Below are positions 4,363 through 60,544 of a DNA stretch of 64,000 bases, one piece after another. The position numbers and the translations under genes are program-made. This DNA comes from an uncultured archaeon (GTDB taxonomy: Archaea; Aenigmatarchaeota; Aenigmatarchaeia; QMZP01; JACQNV01), in NCBI GenBank assembly GCA_964410585.1, contig CAYPFW010000002.1:78207-142206 (forward strand). The letters run 5' to 3'. Below the pieces are notes generated by a model, which saw only the letters and a program-made list of their open reading frames with translations, had not been told where the DNA came from and searched no databases. How positions within the stretch are numbered: the stretch's first letter is position 1; each line of letters begins with the position of its first letter.

Positions 4363-5118
4363 CTAATTTTTGTTTTCGTATTTCCTGATTTTAGCTCTTG
4401 CTGATCTGACATGTTTCTTGGTTTTTTGGACAGAAGCTGCGAAAGAATCAGCTTTCCTCTCTTCTTCTGTTCTCAAATGATGGAATTTTACAAGAGTTGA
4501 CATTGGGGAAAGGAACCTAAAAAATGTCAAGGATAGTTTTAGGGCAGATGTCTTCTCTTTTATGTGTGCAAGTTCGTGGAGAATAACAGCCTCTAATTCC
4601 TTCCTATTTAATATATCGAAAAGACCAACTGAAAGGAAGATGGCTGATTTGAAATGTCTGAAGGAAAAGGCAAGCGGATTGGCTTTGTCCAATGCGAAAA
4701 CTTTGGGCGGCCTTATATTTAGGTTTTTAGATGATTTTTTGATGAAACTCAATACCCATCCAGATTTTATCTGCCTCTCATTGTTTGTTTTTACATAGTA
4801 TAGTGGGATCACTATAAACCCAACCAAAGTTGATACCAAAAGCGTTGCAGGGAGCGACAGCAGTAGAAGGTTTACAAAATTGTTTGGTCCAGTATAGCAA
4901 CTAGAAACACAGAGCATGCCGCATGTTGTTTGTGTTGTGAAGAGCATGAGTGGATACAAAAGGAAAACAAGATGGGAATACAAAATAACTATTCTAGATT
5001 TGTTGGAAAAGCTAAGCCTTTTCAGCAAAAAAATAAGCGAAACAGCAAATGATATGGATAGAATTGAAAGTACAATTTTCGCCGGGTCTACAACTAGGCC
5101 AAAAAAACACCCTACCAT
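4363..5118 (-). CDS. BlaR1/M56-like membrane zinc metalloprotease (signal-transducer protease domain, no sensor domain)
   Basis: Several TM helices, then the HExxH motif (HELAHIKE) in the M56/M48 context. It lies immediately downstream of a BlaI-family repressor gene. Confidence 0.6.
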   Translation of the reverse strand: MVGCFFGLVVDPAKIVLSILSISFAVSLIFLLKRLSFSNKSRIVILYSHLVFLLYPLMLFTTQTTCGMLCVSSCYTGPNNFVNLLLLSLPATLLVSTLVGFIVIPLYYVKTNNERQIKSGWVLSFIKKSSKNLNIRPPKVFALDKANPLAFSFRHFKSAIFLSVGLFDILNRKELEAVILHELAHIKEKTSALKLSLTFFRFLSPMSTLVKFHHLRTEEERKADSFAASVQKTKKHVRSARAKIRKYENKN

Positions 5119-5148
5119 TTGCTAACCTCTTTATTTTCAATTGTATAT

Positions 5149-5206
5149 CGTTTCTCTTTGGGTACGGTATACTTTCTCTTTTTGAAAGAGAAAGGATAGC
5201 TCTACT
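5149..5206 (+). ncRNA. Copy A of a repeated intergenic element: 5' box TTTCTCTTTGGGTACGGTAT, a 10-bp hairpin CTTTCTCTTT/AAAGAGAAAG, and a 3' box GGATAGCTC
   Basis: Conserved ends shared with copies at 45038, 52489, 57647 and (opposite strand) 16098. The hairpin shows compensatory changes (CTC/GAG) relative to copy B (T/A). It lies between the blaI stop and the blaR1 start. Confidence 0.45.
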
Positions 5207-5576
5207 TTGAAAACTTTTCATTAAAGTAAGCGACAGCAGACTTGCCAAATGTGTCTATCATTTTCTCAACAAACTTGTCCATCATTGAATACTCAAAATC
5301 TTTCTTCGAAAGCACTGGTGAGTAAATGTAGTGATAGCCTCCCCTTCCTGGTAGAGCCTTTCTCTTCACTAACTTTTTTTCAAAAAGCCTATCTAAAATA
5401 ACAGCAACACTAGTCAAAGCAACTTTTTGGTCTTTTTTCACAATAGAATGAAGTTCCCTTACTTTTGCAGACTCCCTTTCCCAAAGTGCGTACAAAACCT
5501 TTGCCTCTAGTGGGCTTAGAAAAGCTTCTGCACCTTCTTTTTCAAATCGAATCTTGTTTATTTCCATACTTTTCAC
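5202..5576 (-). CDS. BlaI/MecI/CopY-family transcriptional repressor
   Basis: 124-aa winged-helix protein with the typical family layout (LSPLEAKVLYALWE...LTSVAVILDRLFEKKLVKR). It is paired with the downstream M56 protease. Confidence 0.65.
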   Translation of the reverse strand: MKSMEINKIRFEKEGAEAFLSPLEAKVLYALWERESAKVRELHSIVKKDQKVALTSVAVILDRLFEKKLVKRKALPGRGGYHYIYSPVLSKKDFEYSMMDKFVEKMIDTFGKSAVAYFNEKFSK

Positions 5577-13393: not shown

Positions 13394-16105
13394 ATGAAAT
13401 GTCCTTTTTGCAGTCATCCAGAAACAAAGGTTATAGATAAAAGAGAGTCTGAAGAAGACTCAAACAGAAGAAGAAGGGAATGCCTTTCATGTGGCAAGCG
13501 CTTCACAACATACGAAAAGCTTGAGTTAAGCTCATCCAAAAAAGTCGACAAATTAGTGAAAAGAGATGGAAGAATAGCTGATTTTGATGCCTCAAGAATA
13601 GAGTCTGCAATTTTCAAGGCAGCAAAGGCAGTTGGTGGTACTGATAGAGAAAGGGCAAAAAAACTAGCAGACGAAGTAATGGAGCAAGTCAACAAAAAGT
13701 TCCTAGGGAAAAAAGACCTCCCAACAGTAGAAGACATCCAAGACATTGTTGAAAAAGTCCTCATCGAAAATGGTCATGCAAAAACAGCAAAGGCCTACAT
13801 CATTTACAGGCAAGAGCGTGCAGAGCTAAGAAATGAAAAAAGAAGAATCTTGGAAAAAGAAGATGTTGACGATGTTGACAAAGTTTTCGACCTAAATGCA
13901 CTTAGAGTTTTGAAATCCAGATATTTGCGAAAAGACGAAAACGGCAAGCTAATCGAAACCCCAAAGCAACTTTTTACTAGGGTAGCAACACATGGAGCGC
14001 TTCCAGATATTTTGTATGACCCTCAATTATACGACATCTCAAAATCTCAGCAACAGCACCCAAAAGAATCTTTCGATCCAAAAACAAACCACGAAAAATA
14101 CAGCATAGGAAAATACAAACTAAACCAATATCACCTGGATGCTTTCAAAAGAATGTATGATAGGTTCAACAAAAATCACCAAATGAAATTCTCATGGTCC
14201 CAGGTTTTGGAAAAGCTTTCAAAAGGTGAACTAAGTTCTTATGAAAAAAATATCACAGAGTTCTATGACATAATGGTCAACAGACAGTTCATGCCAAACA
14301 CACCGGCTATAGCTAATTTTGGAACAGTTCTAGGAATGGGCTCTGCTTGCTTTGTTTTGGGAATAAGAGACTCAATAGACGATATAATGGAAAAATTAAA
14401 ACATGCAGCAGTCATCTTCAAATCAGGCGGCGGAGTCGGCTACAACTTCTCACACCTAAGGCCTGAAGGCGATTTGGTTTCTTCAACATGCGGTCTTGCA
14501 TCTGGTCCCTTGTCTTTCATGTCTATGTTCGACAAAATGACAGAGGTCATCAAACAAGGTGGTATTCGCCGAGGCGCAAACATGGGAATAATGAACTCAG
14601 ATCACCCAGATATTGAAAAATTCATAACAGCAAAAGCAGGCAACAAGGCCTTCAAAAACTTCAACATCTCAGTAAATATCCAACCAGACTTTTGGCAATA
14701 CTATGAAAAAAATGAGCCCTATCCTTTAAGAAATCCAAGAGACGGAACAGTTGTCAAAACAGTTAATTCACGGATGCTTTTTGACAAAATAGTTTACCAG
14801 GCATGGGAATCAGCAGAGCCAGGAGTCATCTTTTCAGACAAAGTAAATGAATACAATCCTTTATACGAATCAATGGGCCCAATTGAAACAACAAATCCTT
14901 GCGGTGAGGTACTCTTGTATCCAAACGAGTCATGCAACCTAGGATCAATAAACGTCTGGGCTTTTGTCAAAGAAGATGTGGATGGAAATGTTTCCTTTGA
15001 TTGGGAAAACTTAGCCCGCGTCTCTCGGTTAGGAGAAAAATTCCTGGACAATGTCATCGAAGTAAACAAGTGGCCTCTACAAGACATAGAAGACATGGCC
15101 TTGAACACAAGAAAAACAGGCCTTGGTGTCATGGGAGTTGGCGACCTTTTGTATGAATTAGGTCTTCCTTATAATACAGATGAAGGCAGAAACTTCATGG
15201 AGAGGCTGATGGAATTTGTCAACTTCTACTCAAAAGTCGAAGGCATCGAACTTGCAAGAACAAGAGGACCTTTCCTATACTACGACAAAAGCTTCTATTC
15301 TGAAGGTAAGCTTCCTTTTGCTGGTTTCTACGACAAAAAATCCTGGAGAATGGACTGGAACCAAATAGTCGACGGCGTCCAAAAACATGGAGTAAGGAAT
15401 GCATTCACAATTGTCGTCGCTCCAACAGGATCAATATCAATGATAGCAGGCTGCTCTTCAGGCATTGAACCTGTCTATTCTTTGGTTTTCGAGAAAAATG
15501 TGAAAGTCGGTTCCTTCTACTATGTGAATCCTATATTCGAAAAATGGATGAGAAGAGAAGGCTTATTCGACGAAAAACTAGTAGAAGATGTAAATGCAAA
15601 CAAAGGAACAGTCAGAAGAGTCGGCTATATTCCAAGAAAATTCAAGGAAATGTTTATCACAGCAATGGACACAACGCCAGAAGACCATATAAGAGCCTTG
15701 GCAGCATTCCAAAAATGGGTTGACTCATCGATCTCAAAAACAAACAACTTCCCGGCAGATGCAACAGTTGAGGATATGAGACAATCTTATCTCCTTGCAT
15801 ACAAGCTAGGATGCAAAGATGTAACTGTGTTTAGAGACACATCAATAAAGGACCAGGTCTTGGTTTCAGGCGTTAAAAAGTCTGAAAAACACGCAGCTGA
15901 CACTGGTTTGAAACCTCAGTTAGGAAAAGAATGGACACCAGAACAACCAATAGCAGTTTCAACAAGTGGTAGTTTCTACCAACAACCAAAAGTAACTACA
16001 AACTTTGGGGAAAAGCCAAAAGTCTGCCCATCTTGTGGATCTGAAACCAAAAGAGAAGAAGGCTGTGTATCTTGCCCTGGCTGCGGTTGGGGCATGTGTA
16101 GCTAG
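13394..16105 (+). CDS. nrdJ: Class II (adenosylcobalamin-dependent) ribonucleotide reductase NrdJ with an N-terminal NrdR-like zinc ribbon plus ATP-cone and a C-terminal zinc ribbon
   Basis: N-terminus MKCPFCSHPETKVIDKRES...RRRECLSCGKRFTTYE matches the NrdR Zn ribbon; ATP-cone (VKRDGRIADFDASRIESAI). Catalytic core hallmarks: NPCGE (nt region 14881-14941), the LGSIN context, and the C-terminal CPSCGS...CVSCPGCG ribbon. Length 903 aa. Confidence 0.85.
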   Translation: MKCPFCSHPETKVIDKRESEEDSNRRRRECLSCGKRFTTYEKLELSSSKKVDKLVKRDGRIADFDASRIESAIFKAAKAVGGTDRERAKKLADEVMEQVNKKFLGKKDLPTVEDIQDIVEKVLIENGHAKTAKAYIIYRQERAELRNEKRRILEKEDVDDVDKVFDLNALRVLKSRYLRKDENGKLIETPKQLFTRVATHGALPDILYDPQLYDISKSQQQHPKESFDPKTNHEKYSIGKYKLNQYHLDAFKRMYDRFNKNHQMKFSWSQVLEKLSKGELSSYEKNITEFYDIMVNRQFMPNTPAIANFGTVLGMGSACFVLGIRDSIDDIMEKLKHAAVIFKSGGGVGYNFSHLRPEGDLVSSTCGLASGPLSFMSMFDKMTEVIKQGGIRRGANMGIMNSDHPDIEKFITAKAGNKAFKNFNISVNIQPDFWQYYEKNEPYPLRNPRDGTVVKTVNSRMLFDKIVYQAWESAEPGVIFSDKVNEYNPLYESMGPIETTNPCGEVLLYPNESCNLGSINVWAFVKEDVDGNVSFDWENLARVSRLGEKFLDNVIEVNKWPLQDIEDMALNTRKTGLGVMGVGDLLYELGLPYNTDEGRNFMERLMEFVNFYSKVEGIELARTRGPFLYYDKSFYSEGKLPFAGFYDKKSWRMDWNQIVDGVQKHGVRNAFTIVVAPTGSISMIAGCSSGIEPVYSLVFEKNVKVGSFYYVNPIFEKWMRREGLFDEKLVEDVNANKGTVRRVGYIPRKFKEMFITAMDTTPEDHIRALAAFQKWVDSSISKTNNFPADATVEDMRQSYLLAYKLGCKDVTVFRDTSIKDQVLVSGVKKSEKHAADTGLKPQLGKEWTPEQPIAVSTSGSFYQQPKVTTNFGEKPKVCPSCGSETKREEGCVSCPGCGWGMCS

Positions 16106-16228
16106 CCTTTTCCGGCAGTCCCCGCTTGCTCAAAAGGCTCGTGTCTCCAACTAGCAGAGTGAACTGTTAATAGTTCACAGACATCTCTGCATCATCTCCC
16201 GAGAGATGCAGATACCGTACCCAAAAAA
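16098..16228 (-). ncRNA. Copy E of the repeated intergenic element (reverse orientation) with a GC-rich insert of about 100 nt between the conserved ends
   Basis: On the minus strand the 5' end reads TTTTTTGGGTACGGTAT (plus 16212-16228) and the 3' end reads GAAAAGGCTAGC (plus 16098-16112, overlapping the RNR stop codon). The interior is GC-rich with hairpins (TCTGCATC...GATGCAGA). Confidence 0.4.
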
Positions 16229-16354
16229 CTACATTACAAAAGTGGAAGGCGTAATTTTTTCGAGCTTGCAAGCGAAGAAAAAATAGCCTCATGTTTTGGT
16301 TAAGCTTTTGGATAAAAGGTTAAGTCTGGGGTTCTCATCCAAAAAGAAAAAGTT

Positions 16355-44433: not shown

Positions 44434-44688
44434 TCAGTAAACAGTGCTTCTATGATCTATTTTAACAATTCCAAGAAGATTGTTGCCCTTATCAACCTCA
44501 TATAAAATCCTATAATCACCAACTCTGACTCTGTAAATATTTTCAGTATATCCTTCAATTTTCTTCACTTCTTGTGGAAATGGGTTGCTTCTAAGTTCCT
44601 CTATCTTGTTGAGAATTCTCTCAGCTAATTTTTTATCTATTCTTTTGAAGAACTTTAGTGCTTGACTAGAATATCGTACTGTGAACAT
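44434..44688 (-). CDS. RelE/ParE-family type II toxin
   Basis: 84 aa, ...YRVRVGDYRILYEVDKGNNLLGIVKIDHR matches the RelE/ParE C-terminal signature. Confidence 0.65.
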   Translation of the reverse strand: MFTVRYSSQALKFFKRIDKKLAERILNKIEELRSNPFPQEVKKIEGYTENIYRVRVGDYRILYEVDKGNNLLGIVKIDHRSTVY

Positions 44689-44882
44689 TACAATCCTAAT
44701 TCTTTTTTTAGTTGCTCGTGAGAAATGAGTTTGCCTGAAGATTTCTCTTTCCTGTAAGCTAATAGTGACTCATAGTCGTCTTCAGTCATTATACTATCTA
44801 TATCTACCATATGATCTTTTATTTCGTGTATTTCTTTCTCTATTTTGTTCAATTTTTCCAAAACCATTTGTTGGGTGTCCAT
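44688..44882 (-). CDS. Putative antitoxin partner of the RelE/ParE toxin
   Basis: 64-aa acidic helical protein; its stop overlaps the toxin start (ATGA junction at 44688). Confidence 0.5.
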   Translation of the reverse strand: MDTQQMVLEKLNKIEKEIHEIKDHMVDIDSIMTEDDYESLLAYRKEKSSGKLISHEQLKKELGL

Positions 44883-45037
44883 ATGGTTAATAATTGTTCA
44901 GTGTATATAAATAATTTCTGATGATCATTCGACTAAAAAATAAAAAATCCCGGGAGTGAGACACTCGAAAAGTTGGTAAACCAACAATTTATCGAATTCG
45001 TGGCTCAGTTCTTTGAACAGACCGCTTATGTATAATA

Positions 45038-45090
45038 GTTTTCTTTGGGTACGGTAGACTTTCTTTTTCTAAAAGAAAGGCTAGCACTCA
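45038..45090 (+). ncRNA. Copy B of the repeated intergenic element: 5' box TTTTCTTTGGGTACGGTAGA, 9-bp hairpin CTTTCTTTT/AAAAGAAAG (loop TCT), 3' box GCTAGCACTC; followed by a 110-nt GC-rich stretch (45091-45200)
   Basis: Near-identical ends to copies A, D and E. The adjacent GC-rich segment contains long-range complementary blocks (TATCGG/CCGATCG). Confidence 0.45.
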
Positions 45091-45272
45091 CGACCTATCG
45101 GTGTCTGAACGATTGCGTTTGGCAAATGCTAAACTGCACGCGCCTACAGCCGATCGCTCTAAGCCACTGGGCTACCCCGGGATTGTATTATTTGCAACGA
45201 GTGATTTATATTAGTTTTTGGATGAGCAACTCAATCAACGCTTTTAATCCAATATATTCAACTAATTATATG

Positions 45273-52478: not shown

Positions 52479-52488
52479 ATTTGAATAT

Positions 52489-52533
52489 TATTTTTCTTTA
52501 TGTACGGCTCTCTTTCTTTTTCTAAAAGAAATA
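52489..52533 (+). ncRNA. Copy C of the repeated intergenic element (degenerate: TTTTTCTTTATGTACGGCTC plus 8-bp hairpin TTTCTTTT/AAAAGAAA)
   Basis: Matches copy B over CTTTCTTTTTCTAAAAGAAA; the 3' box is lost. It sits 11-55 bp upstream of the truD start. Confidence 0.35.
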
Positions 52534-52537
52534 ATAA

Positions 52538-57252: not shown

Positions 57253-57609
57253 TCAATTTGCTCTTTTTAAATGTTTTTTGGCTGCTTTTTCCCTCCTATA
57301 AGGAAATCTTATCTTTTTTCCGCATTCTTTGCACAAAACTTCAACTGCTTTCTGTTTAGTGTTTGCCCTGTGCACAGAGTTTACCCCAGGGACAAGATAG
57401 GATTTGCAGTGTTTGCAAAATTTTCTTTTGAGTTCTTTTTGAATCTTGACATTGTATCTCATGCCAATTTTTCTGGCCAATTCAACATACCTGTTTGCAT
57501 ATTTTTTGTTTTCCTTGAATTCTTTTTCAGCTAAATCGAAAAGGATTGCTATTCTTTCTTTTGCTATGTCTGTTTGCCATTTTGGCTTATCTCTATTTCT
57601 GCGATCCAT
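57253..57609 (-). CDS. rnp4: RNase P protein subunit Rpp21 (Rpr2/RNP4)
   Basis: Zinc ribbon CKHCKSY...CKECGKK and a basic N-terminal helix. Confidence 0.7.
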   Translation of the reverse strand: MDRRNRDKPKWQTDIAKERIAILFDLAEKEFKENKKYANRYVELARKIGMRYNVKIQKELKRKFCKHCKSYLVPGVNSVHRANTKQKAVEVLCKECGKKIRFPYRREKAAKKHLKRAN

Positions 57610-57646
57610 AGGTAAATAGAATTAGTTGCTTATGATTTGTATCCTA

Positions 57647-57930
57647 GTTTTCTTTGGGGTACCTTACCACTTTCTTTTTCGTGTCTCCTCTTTGCAAAGT
57701 TGACACGAGATCAGTGTCTCAGCAATGCAATGGACACTGAGACATCTCATCATCCAATATACTCTGTGAGATGCTGATTGAGTGAGCAACAGCGAACTCC
57801 TGATACAGAAACTGATCCGCAGATCAGTTTCCAGCTACGACTGTGCTCACTGCTCATGTGCTGTTGCACATGACATCTCGTCATCTCTTACACCGGCGAG
57901 ATGCCGATCTAAAAGAAAGGGGTTAGACTC
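57647..57930 (+). ncRNA. Copy D of the repeated element: conserved ends (TTTTCTTTGGGGTACCTTACCACTTTCTTTTTC ... TCTAAAAGAAAGGGGTTAGACTC) enclosing a 227-nt GC-rich structured insert (57681-57907)
   Basis: The two hairpin arms of the short copies are here separated by an insert rich in inverted repeats (GTGTCTCAGCAATGCAATGGACACTGAGAC) and two GACATCTC(A/G)TCATC motifs. The supplied ORF 57782-58024 lies inside and is considered spurious. Confidence 0.45.
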
Positions 57931-58360
57931 TTTTCAAAATAATACCGCCAGCTCCGCGTGCTGCGAAATTGTGCATAATATCTGCAATAGAATTCACAAT
58001 GCCATCTGCTTCCCACGCTTTTAGTTTTATTTCTTCAGGCTCCAAGACTTCAACACTAGAAGGGCCATAGTTCATTGCAACAAAAACAAGCCTTTCATAG
58101 CCTTCAGTCAACACCTCTAATTCAACTACATATGAATAGGCTTCTGGAACATTTGGAAATGGCTTTTCCACTTTTCTTGATTCTTTCCAGTCTATTTTAG
58201 AAAGCAAAACGCCTTTTTCATTCTCGAGTTTCTGGACGTGTTTTTGCAAAGCATCCTTGGCAGCTTCTTCGTTTATCGCCATGACCTCGATAAACATCTG
58301 TGACCTTATCCATCCATCCTTCATTTTTTGCTTTACGATGTCTTTGATGTCTTTGCTCAT
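57923..58360 (-). CDS. Hypothetical protein
   Basis: 145 aa, no motif recognised; its stop overlaps the 3' box of element D. Confidence 0.35.
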   Translation of the reverse strand: MSKDIKDIVKQKMKDGWIRSQMFIEVMAINEEAAKDALQKHVQKLENEKGVLLSKIDWKESRKVEKPFPNVPEAYSYVVELEVLTEGYERLVFVAMNYGPSSVEVLEPEEIKLKAWEADGIVNSIADIMHNFAARGAGGIILKRV

Positions 58361-58664: not shown

Positions 58665-59762
58665 ATGTGTATGTACCTTGAATATGTAAGAACTTACCTT
58701 TCAGCAGATGAAAGGTTGACAGAAAAACAAAGAGACAGGCTAGCTCAAAGAATCATTAGATGGGCAGAAGATAATGATGTAAGAGACATAAGTAGATTGC
58801 ATGACAAGCTTGTTGATTGGATCGATCAGCCTTCGATTCAAGAGGAGAAATTTGAAAATGTTGAACATCCATTGGATAATGATGGCGATGTCAACCTTTT
58901 AGAAGACCCAAAATCACAAACACCTGTTGATTTGTTTGTTATAGGAGAACGAGAGATACTAACTGGAGACCAACTGAGGGGAATGATACTTGAGGAAAGT
59001 CCAGAATTGTCTGGTATTGCCTCTGTCATATTGCCTGAGAGCAGAGTTGTTGGCGACAATGTAGATTTAGATGGAATTGAAAACAGACTTAGAGGTATTG
59101 TTCCAAGAATCAAATGTGGTAAACTTCTTATCCCACAAAAACAAGTTCTGTGTATACGTTTTGATGAAAGTGGAAATTTGCAGATAGCCTACAAAAGAGG
59201 CTATCAGGATGACAGAGTCAATGAGGCTCTGAGGCTTTATTCTGAATTATTGACAGTCCAGGAAATAGGCCCTAGAATAGGTGTGAGCCCATCAACAGTT
59301 TGCACTTGGCTGTACAAGGATATGGGCCTGATGCCGGCACGCGACCTAAAAGTTGCAAGACAAATACAAACAGCAGTGAAACTTTTTGATGAAGGCAAGG
59401 AAGTACAGGAAATTATGGATATAATGAAATCGACACAGACAACTGTCTGGAGATGGTTGAATAGAGCTGGTGTTGAGTTCAACTCAAGGGGACCAGAACC
59501 TTGGGTATATGAGACTAAAGTCAGACTCAGTTTGTCGGATTTAGATGAAATATATTCCCAAATAAATCCAACTTTTAGACAAAGAAACAACTACAGGGAA
59601 ATTTTCAAATACATAAAAAATTTTGAGAAAGAAAACAAAAGAGGTCCAAGCAGAGATGAAATTTCAGATGCTCTTGGTGTTGATCCTTGGAAGACGCTTC
59701 AAGTTTTTGTTGAATATGGGATCTTAGAAAAAAGAAGGCTCCCAAGACGATTTTATGTCTAA
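58665..59762 (+). CDS. Hypothetical protein with multiple helix-turn-helix-like segments
   Basis: Three HTH-like stretches (GVSPSTVCTWLYKD, TTVWRWLNRAGVEF, ISDALGVDPWKTLQVFVEYGIL). It is flanked by tRNA-Pro and tRNA-Thr. Confidence 0.35.
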   Translation: MCMYLEYVRTYLSADERLTEKQRDRLAQRIIRWAEDNDVRDISRLHDKLVDWIDQPSIQEEKFENVEHPLDNDGDVNLLEDPKSQTPVDLFVIGEREILTGDQLRGMILEESPELSGIASVILPESRVVGDNVDLDGIENRLRGIVPRIKCGKLLIPQKQVLCIRFDESGNLQIAYKRGYQDDRVNEALRLYSELLTVQEIGPRIGVSPSTVCTWLYKDMGLMPARDLKVARQIQTAVKLFDEGKEVQEIMDIMKSTQTTVWRWLNRAGVEFNSRGPEPWVYETKVRLSLSDLDEIYSQINPTFRQRNNYREIFKYIKNFEKENKRGPSRDEISDALGVDPWKTLQVFVEYGILEKRRLPRRFYV

Positions 59763-59763
59763 A

Positions 59764-59850
59764 AGCCCCAAGGGAGAATTGAACTCCCAACCTACAGTTT
59801 ACGAAAATCGACATACAAATTCTGTCGCTCTACCATTGAGCTACTGAGGC
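59764..59850 (-). tRNA. tRNA-Thr (anticodon CGU) interrupted by a 15-nt intron at the non-canonical position 30/31
   Basis: Exon 1 = 59822-59850, intron = 59807-59821 (AATTTGTATGTCGAT), exon 2 = 59764-59806. The spliced product has anticodon stem ACAGT/ACTGT, loop TTCGTAA, T-loop TTCAATT, discriminator U. The splice sites sit in 3-nt bulges (AG^A and AT^T) flanking a perfect 4-bp helix CGAC/GTCG (relaxed BHB). Confidence 0.7.
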
Positions 59851-60413: not shown

Positions 60414-60544
60414 TGCGCTAGCCGAGATTCGAACTCGGGTCACAGCCTTGGCAAGGTTATACACTTCTTGAATTTTTCTTAAAGTTCTGTATTCTACCAA
60501 GGTACAAACCTTTTTACAGAAAAGGCTTACTATACTACTAGCGC
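60414..60544 (-). tRNA. tRNA-like locus with intact acceptor/T-arm ends but about 55 extra internal nucleotides (multi-intron tRNA, isotype unresolved, or a pseudo-tRNA)
   Basis: 5' end GCGCTAG-TA-GTAT; 3' end CCGAG-TTCGAAT-CTCGG-CTAGCGC-A with perfect 7-bp acceptor complementarity. A candidate D-loop intron (minus-strand nt 16-45 of the locus) gives D-arm GTAT-AGTGGTAGA-ATAC and a BHB-like helix GTAT/GTAC followed by a 9-bp intron hairpin. The anticodon region could not be resolved with a single further intron. Confidence 0.4.

What the first reader, a model, noticed from the sequence alone, without database searches (positions are those of the whole stretch)
5149..5206. Previously unrecognised family of intergenic elements with conserved ends and a covarying hairpin (five copies in 64 kb)
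Five intergenic loci share a 5' box (G)TTTTCTTTGGGTACGGTA(t/g)A and a 3' box GAAAGG(C/A/G)TAGC(a)CTC. The copies are A 5149-5206, B 45038-45090, C 52489-52533, D 57647-57930 and E 16098-16228 (opposite strand). In A, B and C the boxes flank a 9-10 bp hairpin (CTTTCT(C)TTT / AAAG(AG)AAAG, loop TCT or TTG). Copy A carries CTC/GAG where copy B has T/A in the paired positions, so the stem is preserved by compensatory change. The 5' box also repeats the left-arm sequence (TTTCTCTTT in A, TTTCTTT in B), so an alternative long-range pairing with the 3' arm is possible. All copies are intergenic and most abut gene starts or stops. This looks like a structured ncRNA or protein-binding element family, or a miniature mobile element; I know of no described family that matches.
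Basis: seen in the sequence. Interest (0 to 1): 0.85.

Follow-up and report, generated by a model that had tools for sequence, protein, structure and literature searches.

The report
Intron-forming hairpin repeat of DPANN archaea
A roughly 65-base repeat in a small groundwater archaeon is real: it has spread between genes and into tRNA and ribosomal RNA genes, where its ends form a standard archaeal intron signal, and it carries a three-part motif whose co-variation fits a triple helix.

Summary
The repeat family is real, but it is not simply intergenic. Copies A, B and E share both boxes. C and D are degenerate but keep the architecture.

All 22 copies found, in the window and in related low-GC metagenome contigs, point in the direction of local transcription.

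Copy B lies inside a previously uncalled three-intron tRNA-Tyr gene. It is the 90-nt intron at position 53/54. [quoted passage not shown]

Evidence that the element spreads:
- It is absent between eIF6 and TruD in the closest relative.
- Four copies have 19-34-nt flanking target duplications.
- Copy D carries a nested 231-nt insertion that its ortholog lacks.

A downstream purine tract is always the mirror image of the hairpin's purine arm (11 informative copies mirror, 0 direct). That is the signature of an intrastrand triplex motif.

Best reading: a mobile, REP/MITE-like mini-element that survives in stable-RNA genes as a BHB intron. How it moves and whether the triplex forms are not shown. 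Nothing matching turned up in Rfam or in four full-text literature searches.

The parts
5141..5201 (-). Copy A, full short form. It lies between the stop codon of a BlaI-like repressor gene (5202-5576) and the start of an M48/BlaR1-like peptidase gene (4363-5118). Layout on the - strand: box GCTATC 5200-5195; S1 CTTTCTCTTT 5194-5185; loop CAA; S2 AAAGAGAAAG 5181-5172; spacer TATACCGTACCC 5171-5160; S3 AAAGAGAAA 5159-5151; then C and GATATACAA 5149-5141.
   Evidence: 63.5 bits; RNA hairpin, z = -3.8.
44997..45086 (-). Copy B, which is the whole 90-nt BHB intron at position 53/54 of tRNA-Tyr. Layout: U, GCU (inner helix H2), AGC, S1 45079-45071, loop AGA, S2 45067-45059, spacer TCTACCGTACCC 45058-45047, S3 45046-45039, C, TATTATACA, then a 3' tail ending AGC-CACG-AA.
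   Evidence: (central helix CGUG/CACG 4 of 4, H2 GCU/AGC, bulges AG^U and AA^U).
44948..45181 (-). tRNA-Tyr(GUA) gene with three introns. Exons: 45181-45144, 45102-45087, 44996-44991, 44961-44948. Introns: 41 nt at 37/38, 90 nt at 53/54 (copy B), 29 nt at 59/60.
   Evidence: weak Rfam tRNA hit, 15.5 bits; (the spliced 74-nt sequence folds as a canonical cloverleaf with C1-G72, A73 and T loop UUCGAUU).
52479..52537 (-). Copy C, with degenerate boxes but an intact S1/S2/S3. It lies between the eIF6 stop (52538) and the TruD start (52478). The closest relative has the two genes overlapping with no element.
   Evidence: (41.8 bits).
57639..57928 (-). Copy D, between an MJ0538-like gene (57923-58360) and Rpr2 (57253-57609). 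Layout: S1 57919-57911; S2 57679-57670; spacer TGGTAAGGTACCCC 57669-57656; S3 57655-57648. A 231-nt nested insertion sits in the hairpin loop.
   Evidence: 16-nt arms, 88% complementary, 232 nt apart; the ortholog L167 has the same element with a 3-nt loop.
57680..57910 (-). Nested insertion in D. It consists of two tandem units of about 131 nt from a second repeat module built of CATCTC...GAGATG hairpins.
16101..16242 (+). Copy E, after the ribonucleotide reductase stop codon (the TAG lies inside GCTAGCC at 16103-16105). Layout: stem AGCCTTTT/AAAAGGCT 16104-16111 / 16132-16139; about 73 nt of the second module in antisense orientation (about 16140-16212); spacer TACCGTACCC 16213-16222; A6 tract 16223-16228; C; TACATTACAAAAG.
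   Evidence: the module is homologous to a tRNA D-loop intron in L161; an E-type variant in L171.

Best explanation
This is a lineage-specific family of short interspersed elements in a DPANN-type archaeon. The core is about 65 nt, and about 90 nt when the copy is a complete intron. The closest named relatives of the host are Aenigmarchaeota, and the related contigs come from low-GC metagenome assemblies, some labelled groundwater.

Read in the direction of transcription, a copy has these parts:
- a box, G-C-U-A-(G/U)-C(C);
- a pyrimidine arm, S1;
- a loop that can hold anything from 3 to 231 nt;
- a purine arm, S2, exactly complementary to S1;
- a spacer containing the interrupted palindrome TAC-N-GTA;
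- a second purine tract, S3, that is the mirror image of S2;
- a C and an A/T-rich ATACAA motif.

Shown:
- The family has spread to many unrelated sites, always in the sense orientation.
- The box pairs with the start of the spacer, giving a co-varying hairpin of 11-20 bp.
- In tRNA and 16S rRNA genes the element is the body of a canonical bulge-helix-bulge intron. Its first three bases pair with an AGC or GAC near the 3' end. The next four bases complement the host exon. The intron starts with U and ends with AA.

Inferred:
- Insertion happens at the DNA level. This rests on the variable 19-34-nt target duplications around the downstream start codon, the nested insertions in both orientations, and the presence/absence polymorphism.
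- Only sense-oriented copies survive. Between genes they sit in the spacer directly after a stop codon. In stable-RNA genes only copies excised by the tRNA-splicing endonuclease are viable.
- In mRNAs the hairpin with its T-rich arm probably marks the end of the upstream cistron (a 3' hairpin or weak oligo-T terminator). In some copies the A-rich S3 plus ATACAA lies at the right distance to act as a BRE/TATA promoter for the next gene.
- The S1/S2/S3 rule is best explained by a triple helix. Three versions fit equally: an intrastrand purine-motif triplex on the displaced coding DNA strand; its pyrimidine-motif counterpart on the other strand; or the nascent S1 RNA binding the S3 duplex in parallel. 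Which one forms, and what it does, is not established.
For: Family and significance:
-. The architecture search hits only family members in 153 kb and gives 0 hits in 20 shuffles.
- The metagenome scan returned 8 real copies in GC 32-42% contigs. Further diverged copies are in L161, L167 and L171.

Orientation:
- Every copy is co-oriented with its host RNA gene or its downstream gene.

Intron identity:
- tRNA-Tyr.
- 16S helix-23 loop: a 90-nt insert in the cmscan alignment. The BHB predicts exactly the expected mature sequence.
- L161 tRNA T loop at 59/60, with H1 CUGGG/CCCAG, a 4/4 central helix and H2 GUC/GAC.
- The anchored BHB test picks exactly these three copies.

Spread:
- In L121 eIF6 and TruD overlap with no element.
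- Flanking duplications: L124 28 nt, L155 34 nt, L134 23 nt (0-3 of 300 shuffles reach the score), and L167 19/19.
- D's loop insert is absent in the ortholog L167.

Hairpin co-variation:
-.
- Box/spacer extension: TAT/ATA, TAG/CTA, TAGC/GCTA, TACC/GGTA, TCAGC/GTTGA. Mean 3.47 bp with the copy's own partner against 2.52 bp with other copies' partners, p=0.0002. The G.U pairs occur only on the sense strand.

Mirror rule:
- 11 mirror, 0 direct, 6 symmetric, over 12 haplotypes.

Promoter and terminator context:
-.
Against: - No transposase, integrase or reverse transcriptase was found. Only part of the window's proteins were scanned.
- Target duplications are detectable in only 4 of about 20 copies, and their length varies. 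That does not fit a single transposase.
- The element upstream of Rpr2 is kept at the same locus in relatives with 68-100% protein identity. L171 has copies between several genes of one translation-gene cluster. This also fits a retained function rather than neutral mobile DNA.
- A plain DNA insertion does not explain how each intron copy gained a 4-nt segment complementary to its own host exon.
- In C, L124, L167 and L171 the ATACAA(A)T motif abuts the ATG, too close to be that gene's TATA box.
- No transcript data were available.
Confidence: 0.62

Rival explanations
1. A cis-regulatory 'punctuation' module that is maintained in place and is not mobile. It would combine an oligo-T/hairpin terminator or RNA-processing and stabilising site for the upstream cistron with a BRE/TATA promoter, or a leaderless-mRNA-generating cleavage site, for the downstream one. 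Similarity between copies would come from a shared protein-binding or processing requirement.
For: - The element always lies after a stop codon and before the next co-directional gene.
- It is kept upstream of Rpr2 across relatives with 68-100% identity.
- L171 has copies in several spacers of one translation-gene cluster.
- A copy lies between the 16S 3' end and the tRNA promoter in L147.
- ATACAA sits 26-37 nt before the ATG in A, D and L151, matching the TATA-to-ATG spacing of other genes in the window.
- The spacer carries the palindrome TAC-N-GTA.
Against: - A terminator/promoter module has no place inside the T loop of tRNAs or the helix-23 loop of 16S rRNA, yet homologous copies there have full BHB motifs.
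- It is absent from the eIF6/TruD junction of the closest relative, where the genes overlap.
- Target duplications that include coding sequence indicate insertion events.
- In four copies the TATA-like motif abuts the ATG.
Confidence: 0.2
2. A classical transposase-driven non-autonomous element. Either a MITE with terminal inverted repeats, or an IS200/IS605-type palindrome-associated element moved through single-stranded DNA by a Y1 (HUH) transposase or a RAYT.
For: - It is short, non-coding, multi-copy and built around a hairpin.
- It is extragenic, like REP/BIME elements.
- It shows insertion polymorphism.
- The conserved spacer palindrome could be a protein-binding site.
Against: - There are no terminal inverted repeats: the ends are GCTAGCC and AAAC-N-ATACAA.
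- The target duplications are long and variable (19-34 nt). MITE duplications are short and of fixed length, and IS200/IS605 makes none.
- Orientation follows the local transcription direction, which switches along the window.
- No candidate transposase was seen among the proteins scanned.
Confidence: 0.1
3. Independent small structured ncRNA genes, with the boxes acting as promoter, terminator or processing signals.
For: - The hairpin is stable and co-varies, with sense-strand G.U pairs.
- D and E enclose highly structured inserts.
Against: - No promoter lies upstream of the box. The upstream stop codon lies in or next to the box.
- Three copies are introns.
- There is no Rfam hit even at E<=10.
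- The D and E inserts belong to a separate module, present in either orientation and absent from the ortholog.
Confidence: 0.05
4. A chance similarity of low-complexity A/T-rich intergenic sequence.
For: - The stems are homopolymer-like.
- The loose 3'-box search gives many hits: 24 against 12 expected.
- The 15-mer scan of genomes returned only unrelated chance hits.
Against: -: 0 of 100 shuffles reach the observed count.
- 0 hits in 20 shuffles.
- Model hits reach E = 1e-12 to 1e-19.
- Copies occur in related genomes and co-vary.
Confidence: 0.01

Closest known systems
Transposed BHB intron families in tRNA genes of Thermoproteales (Fujishima et al. 2010, as summarised in PMC4090602)
   Same: [quoted passage not shown] They are removed through bulge-helix-bulge motifs, the mechanism of spread is unknown, and spread is thought to be at the DNA level. 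Here homologous 89-103-nt introns sit at tRNA 53/54, at tRNA 59/60 and in a 16S hairpin loop.
   Different: - The lineage is different (DPANN-type rather than Crenarchaeota).
- The same element is also found in rRNA.
- Most copies lie outside RNA genes, in spacers of protein-gene clusters, without a BHB motif.
- Some copies have long target duplications.
- The element carries a conserved hairpin plus a mirror tract.
BoxC / PIT / TM_ECO intrastrand-triplex repeats of E. coli and other bacteria (Hoyne et al. 2000; Holder et al. 2015, PMC4666352)
   Same: An interspersed extragenic repeat whose single strand reads pyrimidine tract, loop, complementary purine tract, loop, second purine tract. That is a class II motif on one strand and its pyrimidine-motif partner on the other (class IV by that paper's definitions). 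In bacteria these repeats are associated with genome rearrangement.
   Different: - This element is A/T-rich rather than G/C-rich.
- The second loop is 8-15 nt and conserved, whereas TM_ECO has 3 nt and the ITxF search allows 1-6 nt.
- It is strictly oriented with transcription, whereas PIT elements showed no orientation bias.
- It is archaeal and doubles as an intron.
- The mirror rule is backed here by co-variation across 7 asymmetric haplotypes.
REP/BIME elements and Correia-type MITEs of bacteria
   Same: Short hairpin-forming repeats in intergenic spacers of operons, co-transcribed with the flanking genes. They can act as mRNA 3' stabilisers or terminators and can carry promoters (from general knowledge and the introduction of PMC4666352).
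   Different: There are no terminal inverted repeats, no RAYT or transposase was found, the target duplications are variable, and the element occurs inside tRNA and rRNA genes as a spliceable intron.
ENE/MALAT1-type RNA triple helices
   Same: Two U-rich tracts and one A-rich tract with an interrupting C+.G-C triple can be drawn for the antisense strand: UUUUCUUU, linker, CUUUCUUUU, loop, AAAAGAAAG.
   Different: That strand is antisense to every host transcript. On the sense RNA the tracts are pyrimidine-purine-purine, and the purine motif is reported not to form in RNA. There is no sequence or Rfam relationship.
Split tRNA genes of Nanoarchaeum equitans and other archaea
   Same: These are DPANN or other archaeal tRNA genes interrupted at unusual positions and rejoined through a BHB. 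Here the intron carries a T-rich tract followed by a TATA-like motif, and the BHB parts lie outside that cassette.
   Different: The halves here are adjacent and could be transcribed as one precursor. There is no evidence for separate transcription.

Membership tests
Archaeal bulge-helix-bulge (BHB) intron | Interrupts a stable-RNA gene, and removing it restores a canonical mature RNA. | tested here: met
   - Copy B: removing three inserts gives a 74-nt tRNA-Tyr(GUA) with a canonical cloverleaf.
- L147: a 90-nt insert in the 16S helix-23 loop against the Rfam SSU model.
- L161: the spliced tRNA is called tRNA-Ile(UAU).
- Not applicable to A, C, D and E.
Archaeal bulge-helix-bulge (BHB) intron | A 4-bp central helix flanked by two 3-nt bulges on opposite strands, with flanking helices (hBHBh' or a relaxed form). 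| tested here: met
   - Met for B, L147 h23 and the L161 T-loop copy: central helix 4 of 4, H2 3 bp, 3-nt bulges.
- H1 is absent for B (a relaxed form).
- For the intergenic copies the test is not met: candidates appear at the same rate as in chimeric controls, 4/10 against 34/90.
Archaeal bulge-helix-bulge (BHB) intron | Cleaved by the tRNA-splicing endonuclease and ligated in vivo. | not testable with these tools
   No transcript data or enzyme assay was available.
MITE (miniature inverted-repeat transposable element) | Terminal inverted repeats. | tested here: not met
   The ends are GCTAGCC... and ...AAAC-N-ATACAA, which are not inverted copies of each other. The only inverted repeat is the internal hairpin.
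MITE (miniature inverted-repeat transposable element) | Short target-site duplication of fixed length. | tested here: not met
   Duplications of 19, 23, 28 and 34 nt occur in four copies. None is detectable in the others.
MITE (miniature inverted-repeat transposable element) | A related autonomous element that encodes the transposase. | not tested
   Only 64 kb of the genome was available. No transposase domain was found in the 26 window proteins scanned.
Intrastrand triplex motif (class II/IV; PIT/TM elements) | Three consecutive tracts on one strand, pyrimidine then purine then purine. The middle tract complements the first, and the third matches the middle in antiparallel (mirror) register. 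| tested here: met
   17 copies have perfect hairpins. S3 mirrors S2 over its full length: 11 mirror, 0 direct, 6 symmetric. The architecture gives 0 hits in 20 shuffles.
Intrastrand triplex motif (class II/IV; PIT/TM elements) | Short loops (1-6 nt in the ITxF definition). | tested here: not met
   Loop 1 is 2-4 nt in short-form copies, and 231 nt in D. Loop 2 is 8-15 nt (definition).
Intrastrand triplex motif (class II/IV; PIT/TM elements) | Physical formation of a triplex. | not testable with these tools
   This needs CD, UV melting or NMR on oligonucleotides, or chemical probing.
IS200/IS605-derived palindrome-associated element or REP | No target duplication, insertion next to a fixed tetra- or pentanucleotide, and an associated Y1 transposase or RAYT. 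| tested here: not met
   Target duplications are present. The 5' flanks are not conserved. No such gene was seen, although the search was not genome-wide.
Any Rfam family | A score at or above the family's gathering threshold. | tested here: not met
   The whole window at gathering threshold gives only two tRNAs. E-value searches around B and D give nothing relevant.

The most novel reading that the evidence does not exclude
The element is a self-spreading archaeal mini-intron whose core is a functional triple-helix module. The three-way co-variation would be the first comparative evidence for a selected triplex in Archaea. The structure could form on the displaced coding strand, or between the nascent S1 RNA and the S3 duplex. 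It would stall polymerases, and so both punctuate transcription units and trigger the repair or template-switch events that copy the element to new sites, which would explain the variable target duplications. In tRNA and rRNA genes the T-rich tract plus TATA-like cassette inside the intron could make the two gene halves separately transcribed and rejoined through the BHB. That would be a living intermediate between intron-containing and split RNA genes.
Probability: 0.25. Interest if true: 0.88.

Novelty: new variant of a known kind. Interest (0 to 1): 0.7.

Why it matters
How archaeal BHB introns reach new positions is an open question. The review cited here says the mechanism is unknown (PMC4090602).

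This family offers one sequence seen in three states:
- as a spliceable intron in tRNA, at two different positions, and in 16S rRNA;
- as an intergenic insert with target duplications;
- as a host for nested insertions.

That makes the question approachable by comparative genomics and metatranscriptomics of groundwater DPANN populations.

It also gives an unusually clean natural case of three-tract (triplex-type) co-variation. For bacterial intrastrand-triplex repeats no function could be assigned.

On the practical side, elements like this hide tRNA genes from standard callers. The only tRNA-Tyr gene found in this window was missed. They also inflate rRNA genes, which affects annotation and completeness estimates for DPANN genomes.

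Tried and rejected

2. A strict BHB search on the tRNA-Tyr locus found nothing, not even for the anticodon intron. My first model, one large T-loop insert, gave no 7-nt T loop. It was replaced by the three-intron model after seeing the L161 intron.

3. BHB motifs around the intergenic copies are at chance level. The 64-nt candidates in L149 and L161a remain leads only.

4. Complementarity between the 5' box and the tail after S3, which would close a long-range helix, is not significant (p=0.08). Watson-Crick S1:S3 pairing is limited to 7 bp by the mirror arrangement.

5. The viral contig scan gave one chance hit in GC-rich coding sequence.

6. C/D-box sRNA readings of the D and E inserts: only sub-threshold Rfam hits.

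7. Synteny around the tRNA-Tyr neighbour (a hydrolase gene) is not conserved in relatives, so no orthologous tRNA-Tyr could be compared.

8. A multi-HTH protein at 58665-59762 was checked as a possible transposase. No catalytic domain was found.

Full report
**1. What is there**

The five loci exist as described. The window has 34-39% GC. It encodes eIF6, TruD, an RNase P Rpr2 subunit and other archaeal markers. The eIF6 homologs that carry a name are called Aenigmarchaeota or other DPANN. The exact proteins occur only in metagenome-derived assemblies.

The 5' box occurs three times (A, B, E) against 0.13 expected. GGGTACGGTA is exact in all three, and AAAGGNTAGC accompanies it. C and D fail the box searches. 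A sequence model built from 11 copies still recovers A, B and C as full hits and D and E as half-hits, and finds no further copy in the window. Rfam has nothing.

**2. Orientation and context**

Every window copy points the same way relative to its flanking genes. In the direction of transcription the order is:
- the upstream stop codon, often inside the box or within 5 nt of it;
- the box GCTA(G/T)C(C);
- the hairpin;
- the spacer TCTACCGTACCC;
- the tract AAAGAAAA, then C;
- the motif ATACAA;
- the next gene.

This rests.

One metagenome scan with a two-gap pattern returned 32 loci. Eight are real copies in GC 32-42% contigs and the rest are chance hits. More diverged copies turned up in contigs fetched through neighbouring proteins: L161, L167 and L171. 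All 22 copies are co-oriented with the downstream gene or the host RNA gene.

**3. Copy B is an intron**

The - strand at 45181-44948 encodes a tRNA-Tyr(GUA) that ARAGORN missed. Rfam scored it at only 15.5 bits.

Deleting the inserts in silico lets ARAGORN call tRNA-Tyr. The full solution has three introns: 41 nt at 37/38, 90 nt at 53/54 (this is copy B plus a 3' tail), and 29 nt at 59/60. The spliced 74-nt product is a canonical cloverleaf with C1-G72, A73 and T loop UUCGAUU.

The key to this solution came from a relative. L161 carries a tRNA, probably tRNA-Ile(UAU), whose T loop holds a 103-nt intron at 59/60. That intron contains a diverged copy and has a textbook BHB: H1 CUGGG/CCCAG, central helix UUCG/UGAA, H2 GUC/GAC.

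A third copy (L147) lies inside a 16S rRNA gene. It is a 90-nt insert in the helix-23 apical loop. Its BHB (AGG-GUUA-AA^U-GCU ... AGC-UGAC-AA^U-CUU) predicts exactly the mature sequence expected from the Rfam model. The next hairpin loop of that 16S holds a degenerate 47-nt copy, and the 16S-tRNA spacer holds another diverged copy.

The three element-bearing introns share an architecture. Each starts with U. The next three bases (GCU, GCU, GUC) pair with AGC, AGC, GAC near the 3' end. The following four bases complement the host exon, with G.U pairs. Each ends with AA.

An anchored test for this arrangement picks exactly these three copies. Intergenic copies score no better than chimeric controls: 4/10 against 34/90.

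**4. Evidence for spread**

- In the closest relative (eIF6 87% identical), eIF6 and TruD overlap by 4 nt and there is no element. In the window a 59-nt copy separates them. A 78%-identical relative has a copy upstream of TruD but after a different gene.
- Four copies are flanked by long direct repeats that include the start codon of the downstream gene. These are L124 (28 nt, 24 identical), L155 (34 nt), L134 (23 nt) and L167 (19/19). For the first three, 0, 0 and 3 of 300 shuffles reach the score. In L155 and L167 the left repeat forms the 3' end of the upstream gene. The genes therefore once overlapped, and the overlap was duplicated on insertion. Other copies show no such repeat.
- The element upstream of Rpr2 is orthologous in the window (D), in L167 and in L171. 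L167 has a 3-nt hairpin loop where D has a 231-nt insert.
- That insert, and a related one in E in the opposite orientation, belong to a second module of CATCTC...GAGATG hairpins. This module is homologous to the D-loop intron of the L161 tRNA.

**5. Structure**

The hairpin S1:S2 is perfectly paired in all 17 copies analysed, across 12 haplotypes. The C-G pair moves along the stem, and A and L149 carry an extra one. RNA folding gives z-scores of -2.1 to -3.8 for four copies. C is weak at -1.0.

Beyond a one-base mismatch, the box pairs with the start of the spacer, with compensatory variants: TAT/ATA, TAG/CTA, TAGC/GCTA, TACC/GGTA, TCAGC/GTTGA, ATTGTAGC/GTTACAGT. A copy's own partner gives a mean of 3.47 bp against 2.52 bp for other copies' partners (permutation p=0.0002). 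The three G.U pairs work only on the sense strand.

The tract S3 follows a different rule. It equals the reverse of S2, not a repeat of it, over its whole length: 11 copies mirror, 0 direct, 6 symmetric, with 7 asymmetric haplotypes all mirror. The orthologous Rpr2-locus copies change in concert: S1/S3 are 3|4, 4|2 and 4|3.

A box-independent search for pyrimidine arm, complementary purine arm and mirror tract finds only family members in 153 kb, and nothing in 20 shuffled windows.

Mirror symmetry of a purine tract has no meaning for Watson-Crick pairing, which it limits to 7 bp here, or for a dyad-symmetric protein. It is the defining feature of triplex-forming sequences. By the definitions in PMC4666352, the coding strand is a class II intrastrand motif and the template strand a class IV motif. 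Nascent S1 RNA could also bind the S3 duplex in parallel (my inference). I cannot tell which of these forms. The purine motif is reported not to form in RNA.

**6. Function**

This section is inferred and not tested.
- S1 is the first T-rich tract after the upstream stop codon. Other genes in the window end with T5-T8 runs.
- ATACAA lies 26-37 nt before the ATG in A, D and L151. That matches the usual TATA-to-ATG spacing here and suggests leaderless transcripts.
- In C, L124, L167 and L171 the same motif abuts the ATG, so it cannot be that gene's TATA box.
- The spacer contains the interrupted palindrome TAC-N-GTA in nearly all copies. It is a possible protein-binding site.

**7. Comparison with known systems**

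The closest analogues are:
- the transposed BHB intron families of Thermoproteales tRNA genes, whose mechanism of spread is unknown;
- the BoxC/PIT/TM_ECO intrastrand-triplex repeats of enterobacteria;
- REP and Correia-type intergenic repeats.

The family meets the BHB-intron criteria only for its copies in RNA genes. It fails the MITE criteria (no terminal inverted repeats, no fixed duplication length). It meets the tract criterion for intrastrand triplex motifs but not the loop-length criterion. I found no description of it in Rfam or in the literature searches.

**8. Verdict**

The element is best described as a new variant of known kinds: a mobile, transcription-oriented hairpin element that doubles as a BHB intron and carries a co-varying triplex-type motif.

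Not shown: the enzyme or process that moves it, whether the introns are spliced in vivo, whether a triplex forms, and any regulatory activity.

Noticed in passing
window 44948-45181 (-): A tRNA-Tyr(GUA) gene with three introns (37/38, 53/54, 59/60). ARAGORN did not call it and Rfam's gathering threshold missed it. It is the only tRNA-Tyr gene found in the window.
   Followed up: yes
window 59764-59850 (-) and 60414-60544 (-): With introns allowed, ARAGORN calls tRNA-Thr(CGU) with a 15-nt intron (it was first called 'tRNA-Lys') and tRNA-Gln(CUG) with a 65-nt intron. The Gln gene was missed in the default run and by Rfam at gathering threshold.
   Followed up: partly
window 57680-57910 and about 16140-16212; L161:12660-12767: A second repeat module built of CATCTC...GAGATG and GTGTCTC...GAGACAC hairpins. 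It occurs as two tandem units of about 131 nt nested in copy D, as one antisense unit in copy E, and as the D-loop BHB intron of a tRNA in L161.
   Followed up: partly
L147:4071-11343: The rRNA operon of a relative is heavily interrupted. The 16S has at least two hairpin-loop inserts plus a large insert near its 3' end. There is a 119-nt intron-containing tRNA in the spacer. The 23S spans 4759 nt against a 2987-position model and includes a group I intron hit (RF00028, 9770-9939).
   Followed up: partly
window 13394-16105 (+): The ribonucleotide reductase large subunit has an N-terminal NrdR-type zinc ribbon and an ATP-cone fused to it.
   Followed up: no
window 58665-59762 (+): A 365-aa protein with several helix-turn-helix domains (HTH_23, HTH_7 and weak transposase-type HTH hits) but no catalytic domain detected. 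It lies between tRNA-Pro and tRNA-Thr.
   Followed up: partly
L149:630-661 (-) and L161:4369-4394 (+): Partial second copies (spacer plus S3 plus tail only) lie about 30-50 nt downstream of full copies. This suggests local duplication of the 3' half.
   Followed up: no
L171:10815-11200: An unannotated small ORF with a lysine- and arginine-rich product (MSRNKTSGKKKKLGAKGK...), possibly a small ribosomal protein such as L39e (a guess from its composition, not tested). It is flanked on both sides by element copies, inside a translation-gene cluster syntenic with window 55.7-58.4 kb.
   Followed up: no
window 44434-44882 (-): Two small overlapping ORFs of 64 and 84 aa, arranged like a toxin-antitoxin pair (judged from size and overlap only, not tested), lie about 65 nt downstream of the tRNA-Tyr gene.
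   Followed up: no
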